This document shows, piece after piece, positions 40,450 to 46,573 of a stretch of 64,000 bases of DNA. Every line of letters begins with the position of its first letter. Position 1 is the stretch's first letter. Source of the DNA: a virus (lineage: Duplodnaviria > Caudoviricetes). The notes below the pieces were generated by a model, which worked only from the letters and a program-made list of their open reading frames with translations, did no database searches and had not been told where the DNA came from. The position numbers and the translations under genes were made by a program. The stretch lies in IMG/VR virus record IMGVR_UViG_3300022173_000189, positions 6,829 through 70,828 of that record; one strand, given 5' to 3'.

Positions 40450-40499
40450 TTGAACTAAACACTTGACGGCAGTATGTGGTTGTTGACAACATGGCGCAC

Positions 40500-41312
40500 A
40501 TGTCGAAGAACACGCACCTACTAACCATCGATCCACAGTTCGATTTCTGTAACCCCAAGGGCACGCTTTTTGTGCCCGGCGCTGACAAGGATTCTGAACG
40601 GCTCGCCAAGTTCATCAACGACCGTGGCGACCGCTTCGCGGACATCCACACGACCGTGGACTCCCACCAGATCATCCACATCGCGCACCCCATCTTCTGG
40701 AAAGACCCCAAAGGCAATCACCCGAAGCCGTTCACTCAGATCACGGCGGACGACGTTGCCAACGGCAGGTGGAACACGACCAACCCGGCCTGGCAGTCGC
40801 GTGGCCTGGCCTACGTGCGGCAGTTGGAGTTGGACACCCCTGACCATCCGGCGCGCTACAAGCTCTTCATCTGGCCCCCGCACTGCCTGATTGGCACTGT
40901 AGGCCATGCGCTCGTGCCTGCGGTCAGCGATGCGCTCATCGCATGGGAGACACGCAACTTCGGACAGGTGAACTTTGTGGCCAAGGGCAGCAACCTCTTC
41001 ACCGAGCACTACTCTGCCGTCCAGGCCGACGTGCCGGACGACAAAGACCCGTCCACGCGCCTCAACACAGACCTCATCACTCTCTTGAGCCAGGTCGATG
41101 AGATCCTCATCACCGGCCAGGCGCTCAGCCACTGCGTCGCCAACACCATCCGCGACATTGCCGCGAACTTTGGCGATGACAACGTGAAGAAATTTACCCT
41201 GATTCGTGACACCACGAGCAGCGTGCCCACACTGGAGTTTCTCGGCGATGCGTTCATCGCGGACATGACTGCAAAGGGCATGAAAGTAACCACCACCAAC
41301 GACTGGAACTGA
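40500..41312 (+). CDS. pncA: Nicotinamidase/isochorismatase-family cysteine hydrolase
   Basis: IDPQFDF, DSH..H, WPPHC, KGSN, SHCV catalytic and metal-binding residues. Confidence 0.88.
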   Translation: MSKNTHLLTIDPQFDFCNPKGTLFVPGADKDSERLAKFINDRGDRFADIHTTVDSHQIIHIAHPIFWKDPKGNHPKPFTQITADDVANGRWNTTNPAWQSRGLAYVRQLELDTPDHPARYKLFIWPPHCLIGTVGHALVPAVSDALIAWETRNFGQVNFVAKGSNLFTEHYSAVQADVPDDKDPSTRLNTDLITLLSQVDEILITGQALSHCVANTIRDIAANFGDDNVKKFTLIRDTTSSVPTLEFLGDAFIADMTAKGMKVTTTNDWN

Positions 41313-41317
41313 TACCT

Positions 41318-42058
41318 ATGGCCCGTTTACTAGACACCAACCTCGAAGACCTGAATGCCGCTTCTGGCTACAAGTTCAGCGGCACAAAGATTGAGAAGCT
41401 AGGTGCCTCAAAATACACCCTCGTCAGCATCGTGTGCGATGTCTCCGGCAGCGTCGAGAAGTTCATCCGGCAGATAGAGATGATGCTCGGCACCATTGTG
41501 AAGAGCTGCGATAAGTCTGCCTTCCGCGACAACCTGATGGTTCGATTGACCACCTTCGACAGCAACCTGAATGAAGTTCACGGATTTAAGCTGCTCTCCA
41601 CCATCAAGCCGACTGACTACGAAAATTCGCTGGTGTCCGGTGGCAGCACGGCGCTGTTCAACGCAGCACATGAGGCGGTGTCCGTCATGGCTGATTACGG
41701 CAAGACGCTGACTTCCCAGGACTTCCTGGCCAACGGCATCGTGTTTGTCCTCACTGACGGGCAGGATAACATTGGCGGGTGCCGTCCGTCCGATGTGGCC
41801 ATGTCTGTAAAGAATGCGAAGTCGGCTGAAAACCTGGAGTCTATCCGCACCATTCTGATTGGCGTGACCGGCGATGATACGGATCTCGACTCCTACCTGC
41901 GACGGTTCAACGACGAAGCAGGCATGGACCAGTACATCGGCATCGGCGTCGCTACTCCAGGAAAGCTTGGCAAGCTCGCGGAGTTCGTCAGCCAGAGCGT
42001 GTCCAGCACGTCGCAGGCACTTGGGACTGGTGGTCCTAGCCAGCCTCTAACATTCTGA
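41318..42058 (+). CDS. vWA-domain protein (TerY-like)
   Basis: MIDAS DVSGS, GGSTALF, LTDGQDN. Confidence 0.92.
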   Translation: MARLLDTNLEDLNAASGYKFSGTKIEKLGASKYTLVSIVCDVSGSVEKFIRQIEMMLGTIVKSCDKSAFRDNLMVRLTTFDSNLNEVHGFKLLSTIKPTDYENSLVSGGSTALFNAAHEAVSVMADYGKTLTSQDFLANGIVFVLTDGQDNIGGCRPSDVAMSVKNAKSAENLESIRTILIGVTGDDTDLDSYLRRFNDEAGMDQYIGIGVATPGKLGKLAEFVSQSVSSTSQALGTGGPSQPLTF

Positions 42059-42062
42059 TTTT

Positions 42063-42150
42063 GCGGTGGGCCTCACCGGAGAGTAGGCCAGAGAAACCGC
42101 TGCGCGGGTAGGCCAGGAGAGAAAACCTGTTCGCCCGCGCATTTTCTTTT
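42063..42150 (+). terminator. Tandem hairpins ending in U-rich tract (attenuator/terminator-like)
   Basis: GCGGT/ACCGC and GGCCT/AGGCC stems; TGCGCGGG/CCCGCGCA stem followed by TTTTCTTTT. Confidence 0.5.
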
Positions 42151-42315
42151 ATGAGCAACGAAAGAGCCACGCCCCGGCAGGTCGCCTACATGCAGGAGCG
42201 CGGCATAGATCATCCTCCGAACGTGACGAAGGCTGAAGCGACCGAAATCATCACGGAATATCAGGCGCGTCACAGTTCTGAGGGCGAACGACATTTGATG
42301 GATTTGGAAGATTGA
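42151..42315 (+). CDS. Small protein with ATPRQ..TKxEA..II motif (54 aa, not in ORF track)
   Basis: MSNERATPRQVAYMQERGIDHPPNVTKAEATEIITEY. Confidence 0.65.
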   Translation: MSNERATPRQVAYMQERGIDHPPNVTKAEATEIITEYQARHSSEGERHLMDLED

Positions 42316-42317
42316 CC

Positions 42318-43154
42318 ATGAATACTGACCACTGTTTCCGCATTGGCTCCACGCACGCCGTCTGCCAGGACTACGCCATCTCCGGCATCATTAGGTTGAA
42401 GACTGTCCCCGGAGCCACGGAAGACATCGGTTACGCCATCGTCAGCGACGGCTGTTCCGGTGCCGCGTTTACGGACATCGGGTCCAGGTGCCTGACGCAC
42501 GCCGCCCGTCACATGCTGATGGTGGCTCCGAGCGCGGTCTTCAACCTTGATGCTGAAACCATCGGTCGCGTGATCATCGACAAGGCTGCCAGTGCTGTGG
42601 ACCGGCTTGGGCTGACTCGTGGCTGCCTGCAAGCCACGCTGCTGATGGCGGTGGTGCGAGGCTCGAAAGCCCGCGTGCTGATGTTCGGTGACGGTGGCAT
42701 TGTCAGGCAAACTCATGGCTGCCGAGAAGTTCAATGCGTCAGCTACGATGCGTCCAAGCCAGGGGTCCAAGCCAATGCGCCTTACTACCTGGCCCACCGC
42801 CTGTCGGTGCAGGACACCACGGACTACTTCTCAGAGTTTTCGCAGTTCAGGCGGACCACCATCATCGACTCATCCGGTAGCCGGACACAGGACGAGGATG
42901 CAGGCGCAGTGACGGACCTGAAGTTCGACGTGGTGGAGGGCGACCAGATTGTCCTGCTCTCGGACGGCATCGATCAGTTTTACGACGGCAAGTTTGAGAA
43001 CATCCACTGGTCGATTGAGGCCGATGCGTTGACGAAGTTCAAGAGCACGCACGGAGAGTTCGTGACCCGGCGCGTGCAGGCCCACGAGCGCGTCTGCCGC
43101 GAGAACCAGGTTTCCCACCACGACGACCTCAGTGTCGCCGCCATCATCGTATGA
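42318..43154 (+). CDS. PP2C-family protein phosphatase
   Basis: CQDY, VSDGCSG, LLSDGI, HDDLS. Confidence 0.9.
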   Translation: MNTDHCFRIGSTHAVCQDYAISGIIRLKTVPGATEDIGYAIVSDGCSGAAFTDIGSRCLTHAARHMLMVAPSAVFNLDAETIGRVIIDKAASAVDRLGLTRGCLQATLLMAVVRGSKARVLMFGDGGIVRQTHGCREVQCVSYDASKPGVQANAPYYLAHRLSVQDTTDYFSEFSQFRRTTIIDSSGSRTQDEDAGAVTDLKFDVVEGDQIVLLSDGIDQFYDGKFENIHWSIEADALTKFKSTHGEFVTRRVQAHERVCRENQVSHHDDLSVAAIIV

Positions 43155-44845
43155 AGACGACGCTGCGAATTGGCCAGGCCGCAGTCACGCTCTCGGATGC
43201 CAACTACCTGGCGGCTGGTGGTGAGGCGGCGGTGTACAAGAATGGTGCGGAGGCCATCAAGCTTTACCACGACCCCAAGCGCGCCATGTCCCTGGGCAAG
43301 ATCAAGGAGCTGGCGCTCATCAACGCGCACAACGTCATCCGCCCACTTGAACCGGCCTATGATGCCAGCGGCAACTGCGTTGGCTACTCGATGAAGTACC
43401 TGGCTGGCACCGAGCCTCTCTGCAAATTCTTCACCAAGTCGTTCAAGGTGGAGCGCAGCGTCACACCAGCCCAGCTCGACGCGCTGCTCAAGGCCATGCA
43501 GCTCACGCTGTCGGAGGTCCACCGAGCCAAGTGCCTGGTGGTGGACCTGAACGAGCTGAACATTCTCGTTGACGCCAATAGTCTCTCCGCTCCTTTCTTC
43601 ATCGACACTGACAGCTATCAGACGCCCTCGTTCAAGGCCACGGCGATCATGGCCAGCGTGCGCGACCACAATGTTCCACATGGAACATTCACGGAACTGA
43701 CCGACTGGTACTCGTGGGGCGTGCTCGCATTCCAGATTTACATCAACATCCACCCCTATCAGGGCAAGCACCCGAACTACCGTCCGAACGAGTGGGAGAA
43801 ACGGATGGAGAAAGGCGTCAGCGTCTTCGACAAGGCTGTGCGACTGCCGCCCGTCTGTAATCCGTTTAGCGTCATCCCAAAACGGCACCTCGACTGGTTC
43901 GAGGCAGTGTTCGCACGCAATGAGCGGAGCGTTCCACCGCTGGCGGATTCCATTGCCCCGCTCGCAGTGCCCAAGGCCATCGTCACCATCCGGGCGCACG
44001 AGAAGCTCTCCGTGACTGAGCTGCGCAGCATCGGCGCAGAGATCATCGACGTGTTCGTGCTGCGCGGCATCACGCACTGCGTCACCAAGTCGTTTGTCAA
44101 AGTCGGGTCGGCCAAGATGCAGATTGACGTGACAGGAGCACGCAAGGTGGTCGTCGGTGCGTCCAGTGCCAGGGCCATTGTTGGACTATGGAATGGAAAC
44201 AGCATCACGTTCAAAACCTTGGATGGAACGATGGTTGGCACCGGCAGCGGCTCCGCCATCTTCGCTCGCAACGAAGTCATCTATGCTCAGGTTGGCGGGC
44301 GGTTGATGCAGTACAGCTTCATCGAGATGGGCACCCGCACGATCATCCAGATGAAGGAGGTCGAGAACATCTCCGCGCTGGCGACCAAAGTGTTCGACGG
44401 CGCGCTAATCCAGGACTTGCTCGGACGTGCCTACGTGACGGTGCCGTACGCCGTGTCGCGCTGCGCGACCAAGCCATGCCCGGCGCTGAACGGCTGGCGC
44501 GTGATCGAAGCAGCCGGTGTGCGCAACTGGGTTGTCGTGCTGGCCGAGCAGAAGGGCCGCTACGACCGCTTCATCCTGAAGTTCGCGGATGACTGGCAGT
44601 CCCTCGCCGTTCACATGCGTGACGAGGATGTCGCGTACGAGGCCGTCAACTTCACAACGACTTCATCAGGCACCTGCCTGCTGCTGACCGAAGACACGCT
44701 GCGAGTTTGGAACGTCGCCTGGAGTGGCCGAGTGCGCGTGTTCGACAATCCTCCAGTCGAGGCAGGCATGAAGCTCTTCAGCATCGACAACAGTGTGGCC
44801 TTTATACATGACGACGTTATCTGCCAGTTGACACTGCATCCGTGA
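43151..44845 (+). CDS. Ser/Thr protein kinase with beta-rich C-terminal domain
   Basis: LAAGGEAAVY, AIKLY, VDLNELNILV, FIDTDS, DWYSWGVL..HPY. Confidence 0.9.
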   Translation: MKTTLRIGQAAVTLSDANYLAAGGEAAVYKNGAEAIKLYHDPKRAMSLGKIKELALINAHNVIRPLEPAYDASGNCVGYSMKYLAGTEPLCKFFTKSFKVERSVTPAQLDALLKAMQLTLSEVHRAKCLVVDLNELNILVDANSLSAPFFIDTDSYQTPSFKATAIMASVRDHNVPHGTFTELTDWYSWGVLAFQIYINIHPYQGKHPNYRPNEWEKRMEKGVSVFDKAVRLPPVCNPFSVIPKRHLDWFEAVFARNERSVPPLADSIAPLAVPKAIVTIRAHEKLSVTELRSIGAEIIDVFVLRGITHCVTKSFVKVGSAKMQIDVTGARKVVVGASSARAIVGLWNGNSITFKTLDGTMVGTGSGSAIFARNEVIYAQVGGRLMQYSFIEMGTRTIIQMKEVENISALATKVFDGALIQDLLGRAYVTVPYAVSRCATKPCPALNGWRVIEAAGVRNWVVVLAEQKGRYDRFILKFADDWQSLAVHMRDEDVAYEAVNFTTTSSGTCLLLTEDTLRVWNVAWSGRVRVFDNPPVEAGMKLFSIDNSVAFIHDDVICQLTLHP

Positions 44846-44863
44846 CCCGGTTCTTACGTGCTG

Positions 44864-46573
44864 ATGAACGCCATCAGCATGGGAATCGACCGGACGGGCC
44901 AGGACGTACGACTGGACATCGACGTGTTGCTCAAGACACGCCTGCTGATTCAATCGAACAGCGGGGGAGGAAAGTCCTGGCTGCTCCGGCGCATGGCTGA
45001 GCAGCTCTACGGCAAGGTGCCGGTCATCATCATCGACCCTGAAGGAGAGTTCGCCACGCTGCGCGAGAAGTTCGGCTACGTGCTGGTCGGCAAAGGCGGC
45101 GACACTCCAGCCGACACGCGCAGCGCCGCCCTGGTCGCTCACAAGCTTCTTGAACTCCGGGCGTCTGCCGTCTGTGACCTTTACGAGATGCGAGACAGCG
45201 ACCGGCATCTCTGGGTCCGGCTCTTCACCGATGCACTGCTCAATGCGCCAAAGCATCTGTGGAAGCCGACGATCATCATCGTGGACGAGGCTCACATCTT
45301 CATCCCGGAGAAAGGCTGCGGCGAGTCTGAGGCTTCTGAGTCCGTGGTCGCGCTCTCCACCCGTGGCCGCAAGCGTCAGTTCTGCGCCGTCTTCGCCACG
45401 CAGTCCCTGGCCAGCCTGCGCAAGACCGCCTCGCGCAATCTGCTCAACAGGATGATCGGCCCGACCTTTGAGGACATCGACCTGGTGCGCGCTGCCGAGC
45501 TGCTCAGCGTCCCCAACGATGAACGCAAGGCGTTCAACCTGGAGATGCGCGTGGCTGACGCAGGAAAGTTCTACGCCCTGGGCCGCGCCATCTCCAAGAC
45601 CCGCGTGATGCTCACGGTTGGCAAGGTGGAGACCAGCCACGAGATCCAGAATTCCAAGTACGGCTCTGAGCCACCACCGCCACCGGAGAAGATCAAGGCG
45701 CTGCTGCCAAAGCTCGCCGACCTTCCCCGCCTGGCGGAAGAGAAGGTGCGAACCGAGGCGGAGCTGAAGAATGAAATCGCTGCGCTGAAGCGAACGCTGG
45801 CTGCAACGCCGAAGCCTGTCTCTCAGCGCATTGATGTGCCGGTGATGACAGAGGCGGACTTGGCCAAGCTTGAGGCCGTCGAAGCGTCGCTTTCAAAATT
45901 ACTTGAAACGACCAACTTCATCCTGAATGGCGTGAACAGGATGTCGAAGGAGGTGTTTGACCTGCGCACCGCAGTCACAGCCCGGCTGAAGGACCAGGCA
46001 CTGGTGAATGCCATCCAGCGCGCCACCGCGCCGACTCCAGACCGAATCAAGGTGGTGCCTGCTCCGAAGCAGCCCGTGCAGAACATTGTCGTGTCCGGCG
46101 ACCAGGAACTTAACGTCGCGCAGACGAAGATGATGAGCGTCCTGGCTCGGCGTCAGGGAAAGACCACGACCCGCAACCAGCTCGCGGTGATGGCAGGCTA
46201 CTCGTCGAAGTCAAAGCATGTGGACAACATCCTCAGCACACTGCGCAGCCTCGGCTTCATCGGAGGCACCCGCCAGAGCTTGTCGGCGACGCCAGCGGGC
46301 CTGAGCCATCGCGAGTGGCCGCAGTTGCCGACAGGCCCGGACCTGCTGGCCTACTGGGTGACCCAGGGCGACCTGTCCACCAAGGCCGCAGAGATGCTCA
46401 AGGCCGTGGCCAGCGTTCATCCCAACAGCATCAGCCGCGACGACCTCGCTGTCTCAGTCGGCCTGAGCGTCACCAGCAAGCATGTGGACAACGAGCTGTC
46501 CACGCTGCGCACGCGGGAGCTGGTGTTCGGCTCGCGCCAGGAGCTGCGCGCCAGCGAAGACTTCTTTGAATGA
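44864..46573 (+). CDS. HerA/FtsK-like ATPase with two C-terminal winged-helix repeats
   Basis: SNSGGGKS, IIDPEGEF, IVDEAH, RGRKR..ATQ; repeats R..LAV..G.S..SKHVDN.LSTLR. Confidence 0.85.
   Translation: MNAISMGIDRTGQDVRLDIDVLLKTRLLIQSNSGGGKSWLLRRMAEQLYGKVPVIIIDPEGEFATLREKFGYVLVGKGGDTPADTRSAALVAHKLLELRASAVCDLYEMRDSDRHLWVRLFTDALLNAPKHLWKPTIIIVDEAHIFIPEKGCGESEASESVVALSTRGRKRQFCAVFATQSLASLRKTASRNLLNRMIGPTFEDIDLVRAAELLSVPNDERKAFNLEMRVADAGKFYALGRAISKTRVMLTVGKVETSHEIQNSKYGSEPPPPPEKIKALLPKLADLPRLAEEKVRTEAELKNEIAALKRTLAATPKPVSQRIDVPVMTEADLAKLEAVEASLSKLLETTNFILNGVNRMSKEVFDLRTAVTARLKDQALVNAIQRATAPTPDRIKVVPAPKQPVQNIVVSGDQELNVAQTKMMSVLARRQGKTTTRNQLAVMAGYSSKSKHVDNILSTLRSLGFIGGTRQSLSATPAGLSHREWPQLPTGPDLLAYWVTQGDLSTKAAEMLKAVASVHPNSISRDDLAVSVGLSVTSKHVDNELSTLRTRELVFGSRQELRASEDFFE

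What the first reader, a model, noticed from the sequence alone, without database searches (positions are those of the whole stretch)
40500..44845. Phage-borne nicotinamidase + vWA + PP2C + kinase operon (TerY-P-like triad linked to NAD metabolism)
Four enzymes with intact catalytic motifs are co-oriented and tightly spaced, with a 54-aa ORF between vWA and PP2C. The vWA-PP2C-kinase trio is the TerY-P triad, known from bacterial stress and anti-phage loci. Here it is on a phage and headed by a PncA-like enzyme. Inference: a phosphorylation switch used against competing phages or to counter host defence, coupled to nicotinamide released by NAD-depleting defences (Thoeris, SIR2, TIR). This would differ from the described NARS1/NARS2 NAD-rebuilding routes, which do not use nicotinamidase.
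Basis: partly seen in the sequence, partly recalled or inferred. Interest (0 to 1): 0.85.

Follow-up and report, generated by a model that had tools for sequence, protein, structure and literature searches.

The report
Kinase-switched nicotinamidase cassette in jumbo phage
A large T4-like phage carries a four-gene unit (a vitamin-B3-recycling nicotinamidase, a metal-binding vWA protein, a PP2C phosphatase and a sensor kinase) that recurs in hundreds of huge phages and inside bacterial NAD+-salvage operons, which suggests NAD+ recycling there is under a phosphorylation switch I found described in no paper.

Summary
On the + strand, 40476-44845 encodes a long-form PncA-type nicotinamidase, a TerY-like vWA/MIDAS protein, a 54-aa ORF, a PP2C phosphatase and a Hanks-type Ser/Thr kinase fused to a C-terminal beta-propeller. 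Catalytic and metal-binding residues are invariant across diverged relatives.

The four genes co-occur, mostly in the same order, in about 90% of kinase-seeded and nicotinamidase-seeded IMG/VR loci. They also occur tightly packed in bacterial chromosomes (Armatimonadota, Acidobacteriota, Myxococcota, Spirochaetota). There they sit inside Preiss-Handler NAD+ salvage operons, for example pncB-nadE-pncA-vWA-PP2C-kinase-nrtR. Some Armatimonadota have the same long pncA directly beside pncB with no trio, so the trio looks like an optional insert.

The cassette is therefore not phage-specific. Its best reading is a phospho-switched nicotinamidase step of NAD+ recycling; a defence or counter-defence role is plausible in phages but untested.

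This 70.8-kb contig (31% complete) carries no other NAD gene. I found no paper describing the cassette. This scan has noted it before on other DNA (212 notes in at least 149 genomes), and my independent analysis agrees with those.

The parts
40476..41312 (+). Long-form PncA-type nicotinamidase (isochorismatase fold). 278 aa from the GTG at 40476; the gene caller's 273-aa form starts at the ATG at 40491.
   Evidence: Pfam PF00857 scores 28 bits against a cut-off of 27. The best NCBIfam hit is nicotinamidase/pyrazinamidase, below its cut-off. A profile of 51 relatives puts nicotinamidases at six of its seven best PDB matches, with yeast Pnc1 best at E 4.4e-17. The D-K-C triad and the D/H/H metal site are invariant. 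In relatives the gene sits beside pncB.
41318..42058 (+). TerY-like vWA protein with an intact MIDAS site and a conserved Ser-rich C-terminal helix and tail.
   Evidence: AlphaFold2 model with mean pLDDT 92.7. Foldseek probability 1.0 to integrin I domains and other vWA domains. D41, S45, T111, D147, S227 and S232 are invariant; S225, S229, G238 and S241 are nearly so. hhalign to E. coli YegL gives E 2e-4 and 46% probability.
42059..42150 (+). Intergenic spacer with two conserved hairpins. The second is followed by a T-rich run just before the small ORF.
   Evidence: RNAalifold on the window, L242 and L243 predicts 25 pairs, 5 of them with compensatory changes, at -34.3 kcal/mol. The simple terminator scan does not call it, because the loop is too long.
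42151..42315 (+). 54-aa ORF specific to this phage sub-lineage.
   Evidence: 69% identical over 51 aa to a 55-aa ORF at the same place in L242, and a similar ORF in L243. No match in the other loci searched (L001-L090). No Pfam, PHROG or PADLOC hit.
42312..43154 (+). PP2C-family Ser/Thr phosphatase. The start is the TTG at 42312 or, more likely, the ATG at 42318.
   Evidence: Pfam PF13672 scores 36.5 bits against a cut-off of 24. Metal-binding Asp residues are invariant in 46 relatives. hhalign to E. coli PphC gives 82% probability and E 1e-5.
43151..43945 (+). Hanks-type Ser/Thr kinase domain (residues 1-265 of the 564-aa protein).
   Evidence: VIA-align Z 18-19 to Csk, PknB and other protein kinases. 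Catalytic residues are invariant. hhalign to E. coli YegI gives 97.3% probability and E 1.9e-11. Pfam Pkinase scores only 17 bits, below its cut-off.
44006..44845 (+). C-terminal all-beta domain of the kinase (residues 286-564), most likely a beta-propeller and the presumed sensor or docking domain.
   Evidence: The AlphaFold2 model is all-beta with pLDDT mostly 80-96. The top Foldseek matches are LRRK2 kinase-plus-WD40 chains aligned over about 650 columns. ESM Atlas structural neighbours are 7-bladed propellers with TM 0.64-0.75.
44858..46573 (+). Adjacent HerA/FtsK-like ATPase. It is a neighbour only and not part of the conserved cassette.
   Evidence: Pfam DUF87 scores 47.7 bits. It is adjacent only in the two closest relatives, L242 and L243, and is found in no other of the L001-L090 loci searched.

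Best explanation
The region is a phage copy of a mobile four-gene cassette. Its genes are a long-form PncA-type nicotinamidase, a TerY-like vWA/MIDAS protein, a PP2C phosphatase, and a Hanks-type Ser/Thr kinase with a C-terminal beta-propeller.

The nicotinamidase most likely deamidates nicotinamide to nicotinate. That is the entry step of the Preiss-Handler route (PncB, NadD, NadE) back to NAD+.

The kinase, phosphatase and vWA protein most likely form a reversible phospho-switch that gates, scaffolds or localises that step. The propeller would act as the sensing or docking domain. The Ser-rich C-terminal helix and tail of the vWA protein is a candidate phospho-target.

In the phage, the cassette would keep nicotinamide low and NAD+ supplied during infection. 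Nicotinamide could come from host NADase defences or from the phage's own NAD+-consuming enzymes.

Shown here: the gene identities, the conserved active sites, the two-way co-occurrence, the bacterial operon context and en-bloc inheritance. Inferred: nicotinamidase activity, who is phosphorylated, what is sensed, and any benefit to the phage.
For: ISO is nicotinamidase-like. The triad and the metal site are invariant in 51 relatives. Nicotinamidases take six of the seven best PDB profile matches, Pnc1 best at 4.4e-17.

The partner genes are pncB-type. They pass NCBI's curated nicotinate phosphoribosyltransferase cut-offs: 435-575 bits against 379 for NF003704, and also over the TIGR01514 equivalog cut-off.

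Bacterial operons:
- L176: pncB-nadE-ISO-vWA-PP2C-kinase-NrtR.
- L204: ISO-vWA-PP2C-kinase-pncB, flanked by leuA/leuB, a histidine kinase and an MFS transporter, so not a prophage.
- Armatimonadota L244-L246 have the long ISO directly beside pncB with no trio, so the trio is an insert in a pncA-pncB unit.

Co-occurrence:
- The 91 sources searched (L001-L090 plus the window; 80 were kinase-seeded IMG/VR loci): ISO in 85, vWA in 87, PP2C in 90, kinase in 90. 68 share the order ISO>vWA>PP2C>kinase.
- ISO-seeded loci: kinase in 71 of 79.
- Bacterial loci: ISO in 57 of 71. Twelve of the other 14 are cut by a contig end.
- Flanking genes differ between lineages, and rearranged orders occur (L033, L066, L086).

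Inheritance: the distance matrices of the four proteins correlate (r 0.64-0.83; Mantel 0 of 500), and they share nearest neighbours across the phage-bacterium divide.

Active-site and fold evidence for vWA, PP2C and the kinase.

Whole genomes: five huge phage genomes with the cassette (four CheckV 100% complete, one 76%) encode NadE in 5 of 5 and PncB above the cut-off in 3 of 5.
Against: - No biochemical evidence exists for any step.
- ISO does not reach NCBIfam's PncA equivalog cut-off (32 against 174 bits). It carries an extra segment of roughly 30-45 residues between the metal site and the WPxHC motif, so its substrate could differ.
- This contig (31% complete) has no PncB, NadE, NMNAT or Nudix gene.
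- In this sub-lineage the cassette lies among baseplate and other virion-associated genes, not NAD genes.
- In phages, unrelated genes are often inserted between the four genes, which is not what strict translational coupling predicts.
- Long ISO works beside pncB without the trio in some genomes, so the trio is dispensable for the enzyme.
- Conserved order within a phage clade can partly reflect descent rather than function.
Confidence: 0.55

Rival explanations
1. Neighbours without a shared job. The vWA-PP2C-kinase trio is a general signalling or host-takeover phospho-system that acts on host or phage proteins. The nicotinamidase is an independent auxiliary metabolic gene that stays next to it by descent.
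For: - Phage loci tolerate kilobases of inserted genes between the four genes.
- Long ISO occurs with pncB and without the trio (also phage loci L102 and L137).
- A few loci have PP2C plus kinase, or the kinase alone, with no ISO within about 9-10 kb (L044 and L088; L198).
- TerY-P trios elsewhere associate with quite different partners, such as the CoCoNuT systems (PMC11090510).
Against: - Co-occurrence is about 90% in both directions across phages and four or more bacterial phyla, with unrelated flanks.
- In bacteria the trio is wedged between pncA and pncB or nrtR.
- All four proteins share nearest neighbours across phage-bacterium transfers.
- Rearranged loci still keep all four genes together (L033, L066, L086).
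Confidence: 0.17
2. A conflict system. The trio senses infection or a competitor and switches on ISO as an effector that removes nicotinamide. That would starve a rival's nicotinamide-dependent NAD+ rebuilding (NARP1 and NARP2 both need nicotinamide), or it would act as superinfection exclusion in the phage.
For: - TerY-P-like trios have been reported as stand-alone anti-phage systems (Gao et al. 2020, as summarised in PMC11090510).
- NARP1 and NARP2 use nicotinamide directly (abstracts).
- The cassette has moved repeatedly between phages and bacteria.
Against: - No PADLOC defence model matches any of the four proteins.
- The two bacterial loci whose flanks were annotated (L204, L176) lie in housekeeping contexts with pncB, nadE and nrtR rather than in defence islands.
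- Pairing with pncB and nadE implies the nicotinate is recycled to NAD+, not thrown away.
Confidence: 0.12
3. ISO is not a nicotinamidase. It would be a cysteine amidohydrolase for another amide, such as a modified pyridine, a nucleotide amide or a protein or peptide amide, made or sensed by the trio.
For: - ISO is well below the PncA equivalog cut-off.
- It has an extra conserved segment absent from solved nicotinamidases.
- ESM Atlas neighbours are variously auto-named isochorismatase, cysteine hydrolase or nicotinamidase.
Against: - The metal-binding Asp/His/His site that marks nicotinamidases within the superfamily is invariant.
- Nicotinamidases dominate the profile's PDB matches, taking six of the seven best.
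- The gene is recurrently adjacent to genes scoring over the nicotinate phosphoribosyltransferase cut-offs, including directly adjacent in L244-L246.
- Four of five cassette-bearing bacterial genomes showed no match over the cut-off of the PncA equivalog model. That model is strict: only one of 14 control genomes scored over its cut-off.
Confidence: 0.1

Closest known systems
TerY-P triad: TerY-like vWA + PP2C + Ser/Thr kinase (Anantharaman, Iyer and Aravind 2012, and the anti-phage TerY-P-like modules of Gao et al. 2020, both as summarised in PMC11090510). The E. coli example is yegL-pphC-yegI.
   Same: It has the same three domain types, in the same order (vWA, PP2C, kinase) on one strand, and the PP2C and kinase genes overlap by ATGA as reported for pphC/yegI. 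Profile homology to YegL, PphC and YegI is 46%, 82% and 97%. Both vWA proteins have a Ser-rich C-terminal helix.
   Different: Here the kinase ends in a beta-propeller. The described forms end in a zinc ribbon (CoCoNuT-linked), an OB fold (Gao) or a membrane hairpin (YegI). The PADLOC TerY model does not match. The partner is a metabolic enzyme in an NAD+ salvage operon, not restriction or DNA-processing genes.
PncA/Pnc1 nicotinamidases and the pncA-pncB Preiss-Handler salvage pair, often under the regulator NrtR (Rodionov et al. 2008, PMC2330246)
   Same: The Asp-Lys-Cys triad and the metal site are present. The best sequence matches among solved structures are Pnc1 and PncA. Relatives sit beside pncB, nadE and nrtR.
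   Different: The protein is about 265-275 aa, against about 180-215 aa for the solved enzymes, with an extra conserved segment. It scores below the PncA equivalog cut-off. It is usually separated from pncB by three signalling genes.
Phage NAD+ reconstitution pathways NARP1, NARP2 and NARP3, and the 'NAD-jumbo phages' (bioRxiv 10.1101/2024.02.11.579819; PMC13464706; PMC11662467)
   Same: A phage-borne enzyme acts on a product of NAD+ cleavage. Relatives among huge phages also encode PncB and NadE. Preiss-Handler gene sets in jumbo phages have been reported computationally.
   Different: NARP1 recycles ADP-ribose together with nicotinamide, NARP2 converts nicotinamide to NAD+ via NMN, and NARP3 pairs PnuC with a NadR-like enzyme. 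None uses a nicotinamidase or a kinase/phosphatase/vWA trio. This contig carries none of their genes.

Membership tests
TerY-P triad | TerY-like vWA domain with a MIDAS metal site | tested here: met
   Model pLDDT 92.7. Foldseek probability 1.0 to vWA and integrin I domains. MIDAS residues D41, S45, T111 and D147 are invariant. Homology to YegL itself is weak (46%).
TerY-P triad | PP2C-type phosphatase encoded beside the vWA gene | tested here: met
   PF13672 scores 36.5 bits against a cut-off of 24. Metal-binding Asp residues are invariant. hhalign gives 82% probability to PphC.
TerY-P triad | Hanks-type Ser/Thr kinase encoded beside the phosphatase | tested here: met
   VIA Z 18-19 to protein kinases. 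Catalytic residues are invariant. hhalign gives 97.3% probability to YegI. Pfam Pkinase is below its cut-off.
TerY-P triad | Kinase fused at its C-terminus to a zinc ribbon (CoCoNuT-linked form) or an OB fold (anti-phage form of Gao et al.) | tested here: not met
   The C-terminal 280 residues are an all-beta, propeller-like domain. The defining forms are described in PMC11090510.
TerY-P triad | Match to the defence-system HMMs (PADLOC TerY and partners) | tested here: not met
   No PADLOC hit even at E up to 10. The test is narrow: E. coli YegL reaches only E 0.032 and PphC has no hit.
Nicotinamidase (PncA/Pnc1) | Catalytic Asp-Lys-Cys triad of the isochorismatase-fold cysteine hydrolases | tested here: met
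   D5, K156 and C206 (numbering from window:40518) are invariant in 51 sequences. They align to Pnc1.
Nicotinamidase (PncA/Pnc1) | Metal-binding Asp plus two or three His residues, which set nicotinamidases apart within the superfamily | tested here: met
   D48, H50, H57 and H122 are invariant.
Nicotinamidase (PncA/Pnc1) | Score above the curated family cut-offs | tested here: inconclusive
   PF00857 scores 28 bits against 27, which is just met. NCBIfam NF008623 scores 32 bits against 174, which is not met.
Nicotinamidase (PncA/Pnc1) | Genomic coupling to nicotinate phosphoribosyltransferase (pncB) | tested here: inconclusive
   Met in relatives. Not met on this 31%-complete contig.
Nicotinamidase (PncA/Pnc1) | Hydrolysis of nicotinamide to nicotinate and ammonia | not testable with these tools
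   This needs an enzyme assay or genetic complementation.
Phage NARP1 / NARP2 / NARP3 | Adps + Namat, or Nampt + Nmnat, or PnuC + NadR-like enzyme | tested here: not met
   The contig has no PF04095 (Nampt/NAPRT family) or PF01467 (NMNAT family) match. The contig is a fragment, so the whole phage may still carry them. Adps, Namat and PnuC were not searched by name.

The most novel reading that the evidence does not exclude
The cassette is a signal-gated nicotinamide sink used by both sides of the phage-host conflict. The propeller-kinase would detect a cue of NAD+ breakdown or infection and, through the vWA protein, switch the nicotinamidase on. In bacteria this would deny nicotinamide to phage NARP1/NARP2 rebuilding while routing it into the cell's own NadE-dependent path. 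In huge phages the captured cassette, together with phage pncB and nadE, would form a fourth, regulated NAD+ reconstitution route.
Probability: 0.1. Interest if true: 0.85.

Novelty: new variant of a known kind. Interest (0 to 1): 0.6.

Why it matters
NAD+ depletion is a major theme of anti-phage immunity, and phage NAD+ rebuilding is a recent discovery. The described routes all bypass nicotinamidase.

TerY-P-type trios are widespread, yet the papers I could search give them no established mechanism or target. Here a TerY-P-like trio is tied to one identifiable enzyme of a well-understood pathway, across hundreds of phages and several bacterial phyla. That gives the trio a concrete, assayable output: nicotinamide-to-nicotinate flux.

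If the switch is real, it would be an undescribed post-translational layer of control on bacterial NAD+ salvage. It would also be a candidate regulated Preiss-Handler-type NAD+ route in jumbo phages.

Tried and rejected
- Megablast of the region against GenBank phages found no match. Only protein-level relatives exist.
- The search for related loci with the single kinase sequence found nothing in IMG/VR. An alignment was needed.
- PADLOC gave no hit for the four proteins. I do not read this as evidence against a TerY-P-like nature, because the E. coli trio fails as well.
- The HerA-like ATPase downstream is not part of the unit. It is adjacent only in the two closest relatives.
- Prophage origin of the bacterial copies is rejected for L204 and L176, whose flanks are housekeeping genes. 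It was not checked for the many short MAG contigs, some of which may be mis-binned phage DNA; L173 looks phage-like.
- The sigma-70 promoter and simple terminator scans found nothing on the + strand.
- I looked for gene fusions joining ISO to a trio protein. None was seen; only vWA-PP2C share one open frame, in L174 and L210.
- Direction of transfer cannot be inferred. The kinase tree is unrooted, built with FastTree, and many rows have odd composition.

Full report
**What is in the window**

The + strand between 40476 and 44845 carries five co-oriented ORFs:
- ISO, 40476-41312.
- vWA, 41318-42058.
- A 54-aa ORF, 42151-42315.
- PP2C, 42312-43154.
- A 564-aa kinase, 43151-44845.

The gaps are 5 nt and 92 nt, followed by two 4-nt overlaps. 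The window is bases 6829-70828 of a 70.8-kb IMG/VR virus record that CheckV rates 31% complete. Nearby genes include a T4-type baseplate protein, a 5'-3' exonuclease and a cell-wall hydrolase. The two closest relatives, L242 (a 163-kb contig) and L243, are syntenic and add Phage_base_V and T4 gp13 hits. This is a large T4-like phage.

**Identity of the four proteins**

ISO:
- It barely passes Pfam Isochorismatase (28 bits against 27).
- Its best NCBIfam hit is nicotinamidase/pyrazinamidase, far below the cut-off.
- Its PDB sequence matches are nicotinamidases. With a profile of 51 relatives, nicotinamidases take six of the seven best matches and Pnc1 reaches E 4.4e-17.
- In that alignment the Asp-Lys-Cys triad, the Asp/His/His metal site and the WPxHC histidine are invariant.
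- The family is a long form of about 265-275 aa, with an extra conserved segment.

vWA:
- It has no Pfam hit.
- It folds with pLDDT 92.7 into a vWA domain.
- The MIDAS residues are invariant, and there is a conserved Ser-rich C-terminal helix and tail.

PP2C:
- It passes PF13672.
- Its metal-binding aspartates are invariant.

Kinase:
- The N-terminal 265 residues are a Hanks-type kinase, with Z 18-19 to Csk and PknB and invariant catalytic residues.
- Residues 286-564 form an all-beta, propeller-like domain.

Profile comparison with the E. coli trio YegL, PphC and YegI gives probabilities of 46%, 82% and 97%. The trio is therefore TerY-P-like in architecture and distantly homologous. It differs in the kinase's C-terminal domain and does not match the PADLOC models.

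**Is the nicotinamidase conserved with the trio?**

Yes, in both directions.
- All four GenBank phage records that match the kinase also match ISO nearby, in the same order. Three are uncultured phages of 462-595 kb.
- A kinase alignment found 141 IMG/VR contigs. Across the 91 sources scanned (the 80 kept loci, ten loci fetched earlier and the window), ISO was found in 85, vWA in 87, PP2C in 90 and the kinase in 90. Sixty-eight share the order ISO>vWA>PP2C>kinase on one strand.
- An ISO alignment found 290 contigs. Of 79 new loci, 71 carry the kinase, 72 PP2C and 74 vWA. Several of the exceptions are cut by contig ends or are spread beyond the 10-kb flank.
- Flanking genes differ between lineages. 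Unrelated genes are often inserted between the four. Rearranged orders still keep the set together (L033, L066, L086).

**The cassette is also bacterial, and sits in NAD+ salvage operons**

- A scan of one genome per species found 71 loci in MAGs. These include complete Capsulimonadaceae and Myxococcota chromosomes and megabase contigs of Chthonomonadaceae, Acidobacteriota and Spirochaetota.
- Fifty-seven loci carry ISO, tightly packed with the others. Twelve of the remaining 14 are truncated.
- L204 reads ISO-vWA-PP2C-kinase-pncB between leuA/leuB, a serpin, a histidine kinase, a sugar kinase and an MFS transporter.
- L176 reads pncB-nadE-ISO-vWA-PP2C-kinase-NrtR.
- The PRTases pass NCBI's curated nicotinate phosphoribosyltransferase cut-offs, in bacteria and in phage L005.
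- In a sample of 101 genomes drawn from the phylum of G001 (the L204 genome, Armatimonadota by its record title), the highest-scoring ISO genes always lie 2.7 kb upstream of the kinase. A lower-scoring long-ISO group lacks the kinase in the same genome; in three of its six members (L244-L246) ISO stands directly beside pncB with no trio. The trio therefore looks like an optional insert in a pncA-pncB unit.
- Four of five cassette-bearing bacterial genomes show no match over the cut-off of the PncA equivalog model. That model is strict: only one of 14 control genomes scored over its cut-off.

**Inheritance**

- In a kinase tree of 131 distinct sequences, phage and bacterial rows interleave, with at least seven label changes. 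The window groups with L242, L243 and L009.
- The distance matrices of the four proteins correlate (r 0.64-0.83; Mantel 0 of 500).
- Bacterial outliers have the same phage nearest neighbours in all four proteins. For example, L201 and the 479-kb phage L064 are 55-80% identical in each.
- The cassette therefore moves as a block between phages and bacteria. The direction cannot be told.

**NAD genes elsewhere in the phages**

- Within about 9 kb of the cassette, pncB-like genes occur in 39 of the 91 scanned sources and Nudix genes in 36, sometimes inside the cassette.
- Five huge phage genomes with the cassette, four of them CheckV 100% complete and one 76%, encode NadE in 5 of 5 and PncB above the cut-off in 3 of 5.
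- Three of four other huge records have a PF04095 gene.
- NadE is only needed on the deamidated (nicotinate) route, which fits a nicotinamidase entry step. This last point rests on established knowledge of the Preiss-Handler pathway.
- This contig has none of these genes, but about two thirds of the genome is missing.

**Literature**

- No paper in the searchable library combines nicotinamidase with vWA, PP2C and a kinase.
- TerY-P is described as a vWA/PP2C/kinase trio with a zinc-ribbon or OB-fold kinase, linked to tellurite resistance, restriction systems and anti-phage defence (PMC11090510).
- YegI and PphC are characterised biochemically, but their substrates are unknown.
- Jumbo-phage NAD+ synthesis, including pncB-nadD-nadE clusters, has been reported computationally (PMC11662467; PMC7824862).
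- NARP1, NARP2 and NARP3 do not use nicotinamidase.

**Mechanism and rivals**

The best-supported reading is a phospho-switched nicotinamidase step of Preiss-Handler NAD+ recycling, captured by or shared with jumbo phages (confidence 0.55).

The rivals are:
- Mere neighbourhood without a shared job (0.17).
- A conflict system that uses ISO as a nicotinamide-removing effector (0.12).
- A different amide substrate for ISO (0.10).

What is phosphorylated, what the propeller senses and whether the phage gains protection from NADase defences are all inferences. The complex predictor was not available for this window.

**Earlier notes of this scan**

After finishing my own survey I looked up earlier notes. 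The same cassette has been noted 212 times in at least 149 genomes. Earlier follow-ups reached the same description: recurrence in huge phages and in bacteria, NrtR control, a propeller-bearing kinase, and no literature. My results agree with them and were obtained independently on this window.

Noticed in passing
window 42059-42150: The spacer between vWA and the small ORF holds two hairpins conserved in the two closest relatives, with a few compensatory changes. The second hairpin is followed by a T-rich run right before the ATG. It could be an internal terminator or attenuator that splits ISO-vWA from PP2C-kinase expression.
   Followed up: partly
window 44858-46573: This is a HerA/FtsK-like ATPase (DUF87). 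Its C-terminal third contains two copies of a roughly 35-aa segment with the motif SKHVDNxLSTLR, perhaps tandem winged-helix modules. It is adjacent to the cassette only in L242 and L243, and L243 has an HNH endonuclease inserted before it.
   Followed up: no
L201 (Armatimonadota MAG, 1.36-Mb contig) and L064 (IMG/VR phage of 479 kb with terminal repeats): All four cassette proteins are each other's nearest relatives at 55-80% identity. This suggests a fairly recent phage-bacterium exchange and possibly a host link for that huge phage.
   Followed up: no
L174:8026-9918 and L210:7783-9951: vWA and PP2C hits fall in one stop-free frame, so these Armatimonadota copies may encode a fused vWA-PP2C protein.
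   Followed up: no
L211, L216, L221-L223, L236, L239 (Myxococcota, Bradymonadia and related MAG loci; L222 is titled only 'proteobacterium'): This variant cassette lacks PP2C. It reads ISO-vWA-kinase, mostly followed or flanked by an NrtR-like Nudix gene.
   Followed up: no
L244, L245, L246 (Armatimonadota); L102, L137 (phage contigs): Here the long-form ISO lies next to pncB (directly adjacent in L244-L246, 0.7-1.6 kb away in L102 and L137), with no vWA, PP2C or kinase within reach. This is the presumed basal pncA-pncB arrangement.
   Followed up: partly
L005:5587-6513: A 308-aa protein upstream of the cassette in a 267-kb phage contig combines weak NMN-adenylyltransferase-like and Nudix matches. 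Two further Nudix genes and a cytidylyltransferase-family gene lie beside it, so that phage has a dense NAD-related block around the cassette.
   Followed up: partly
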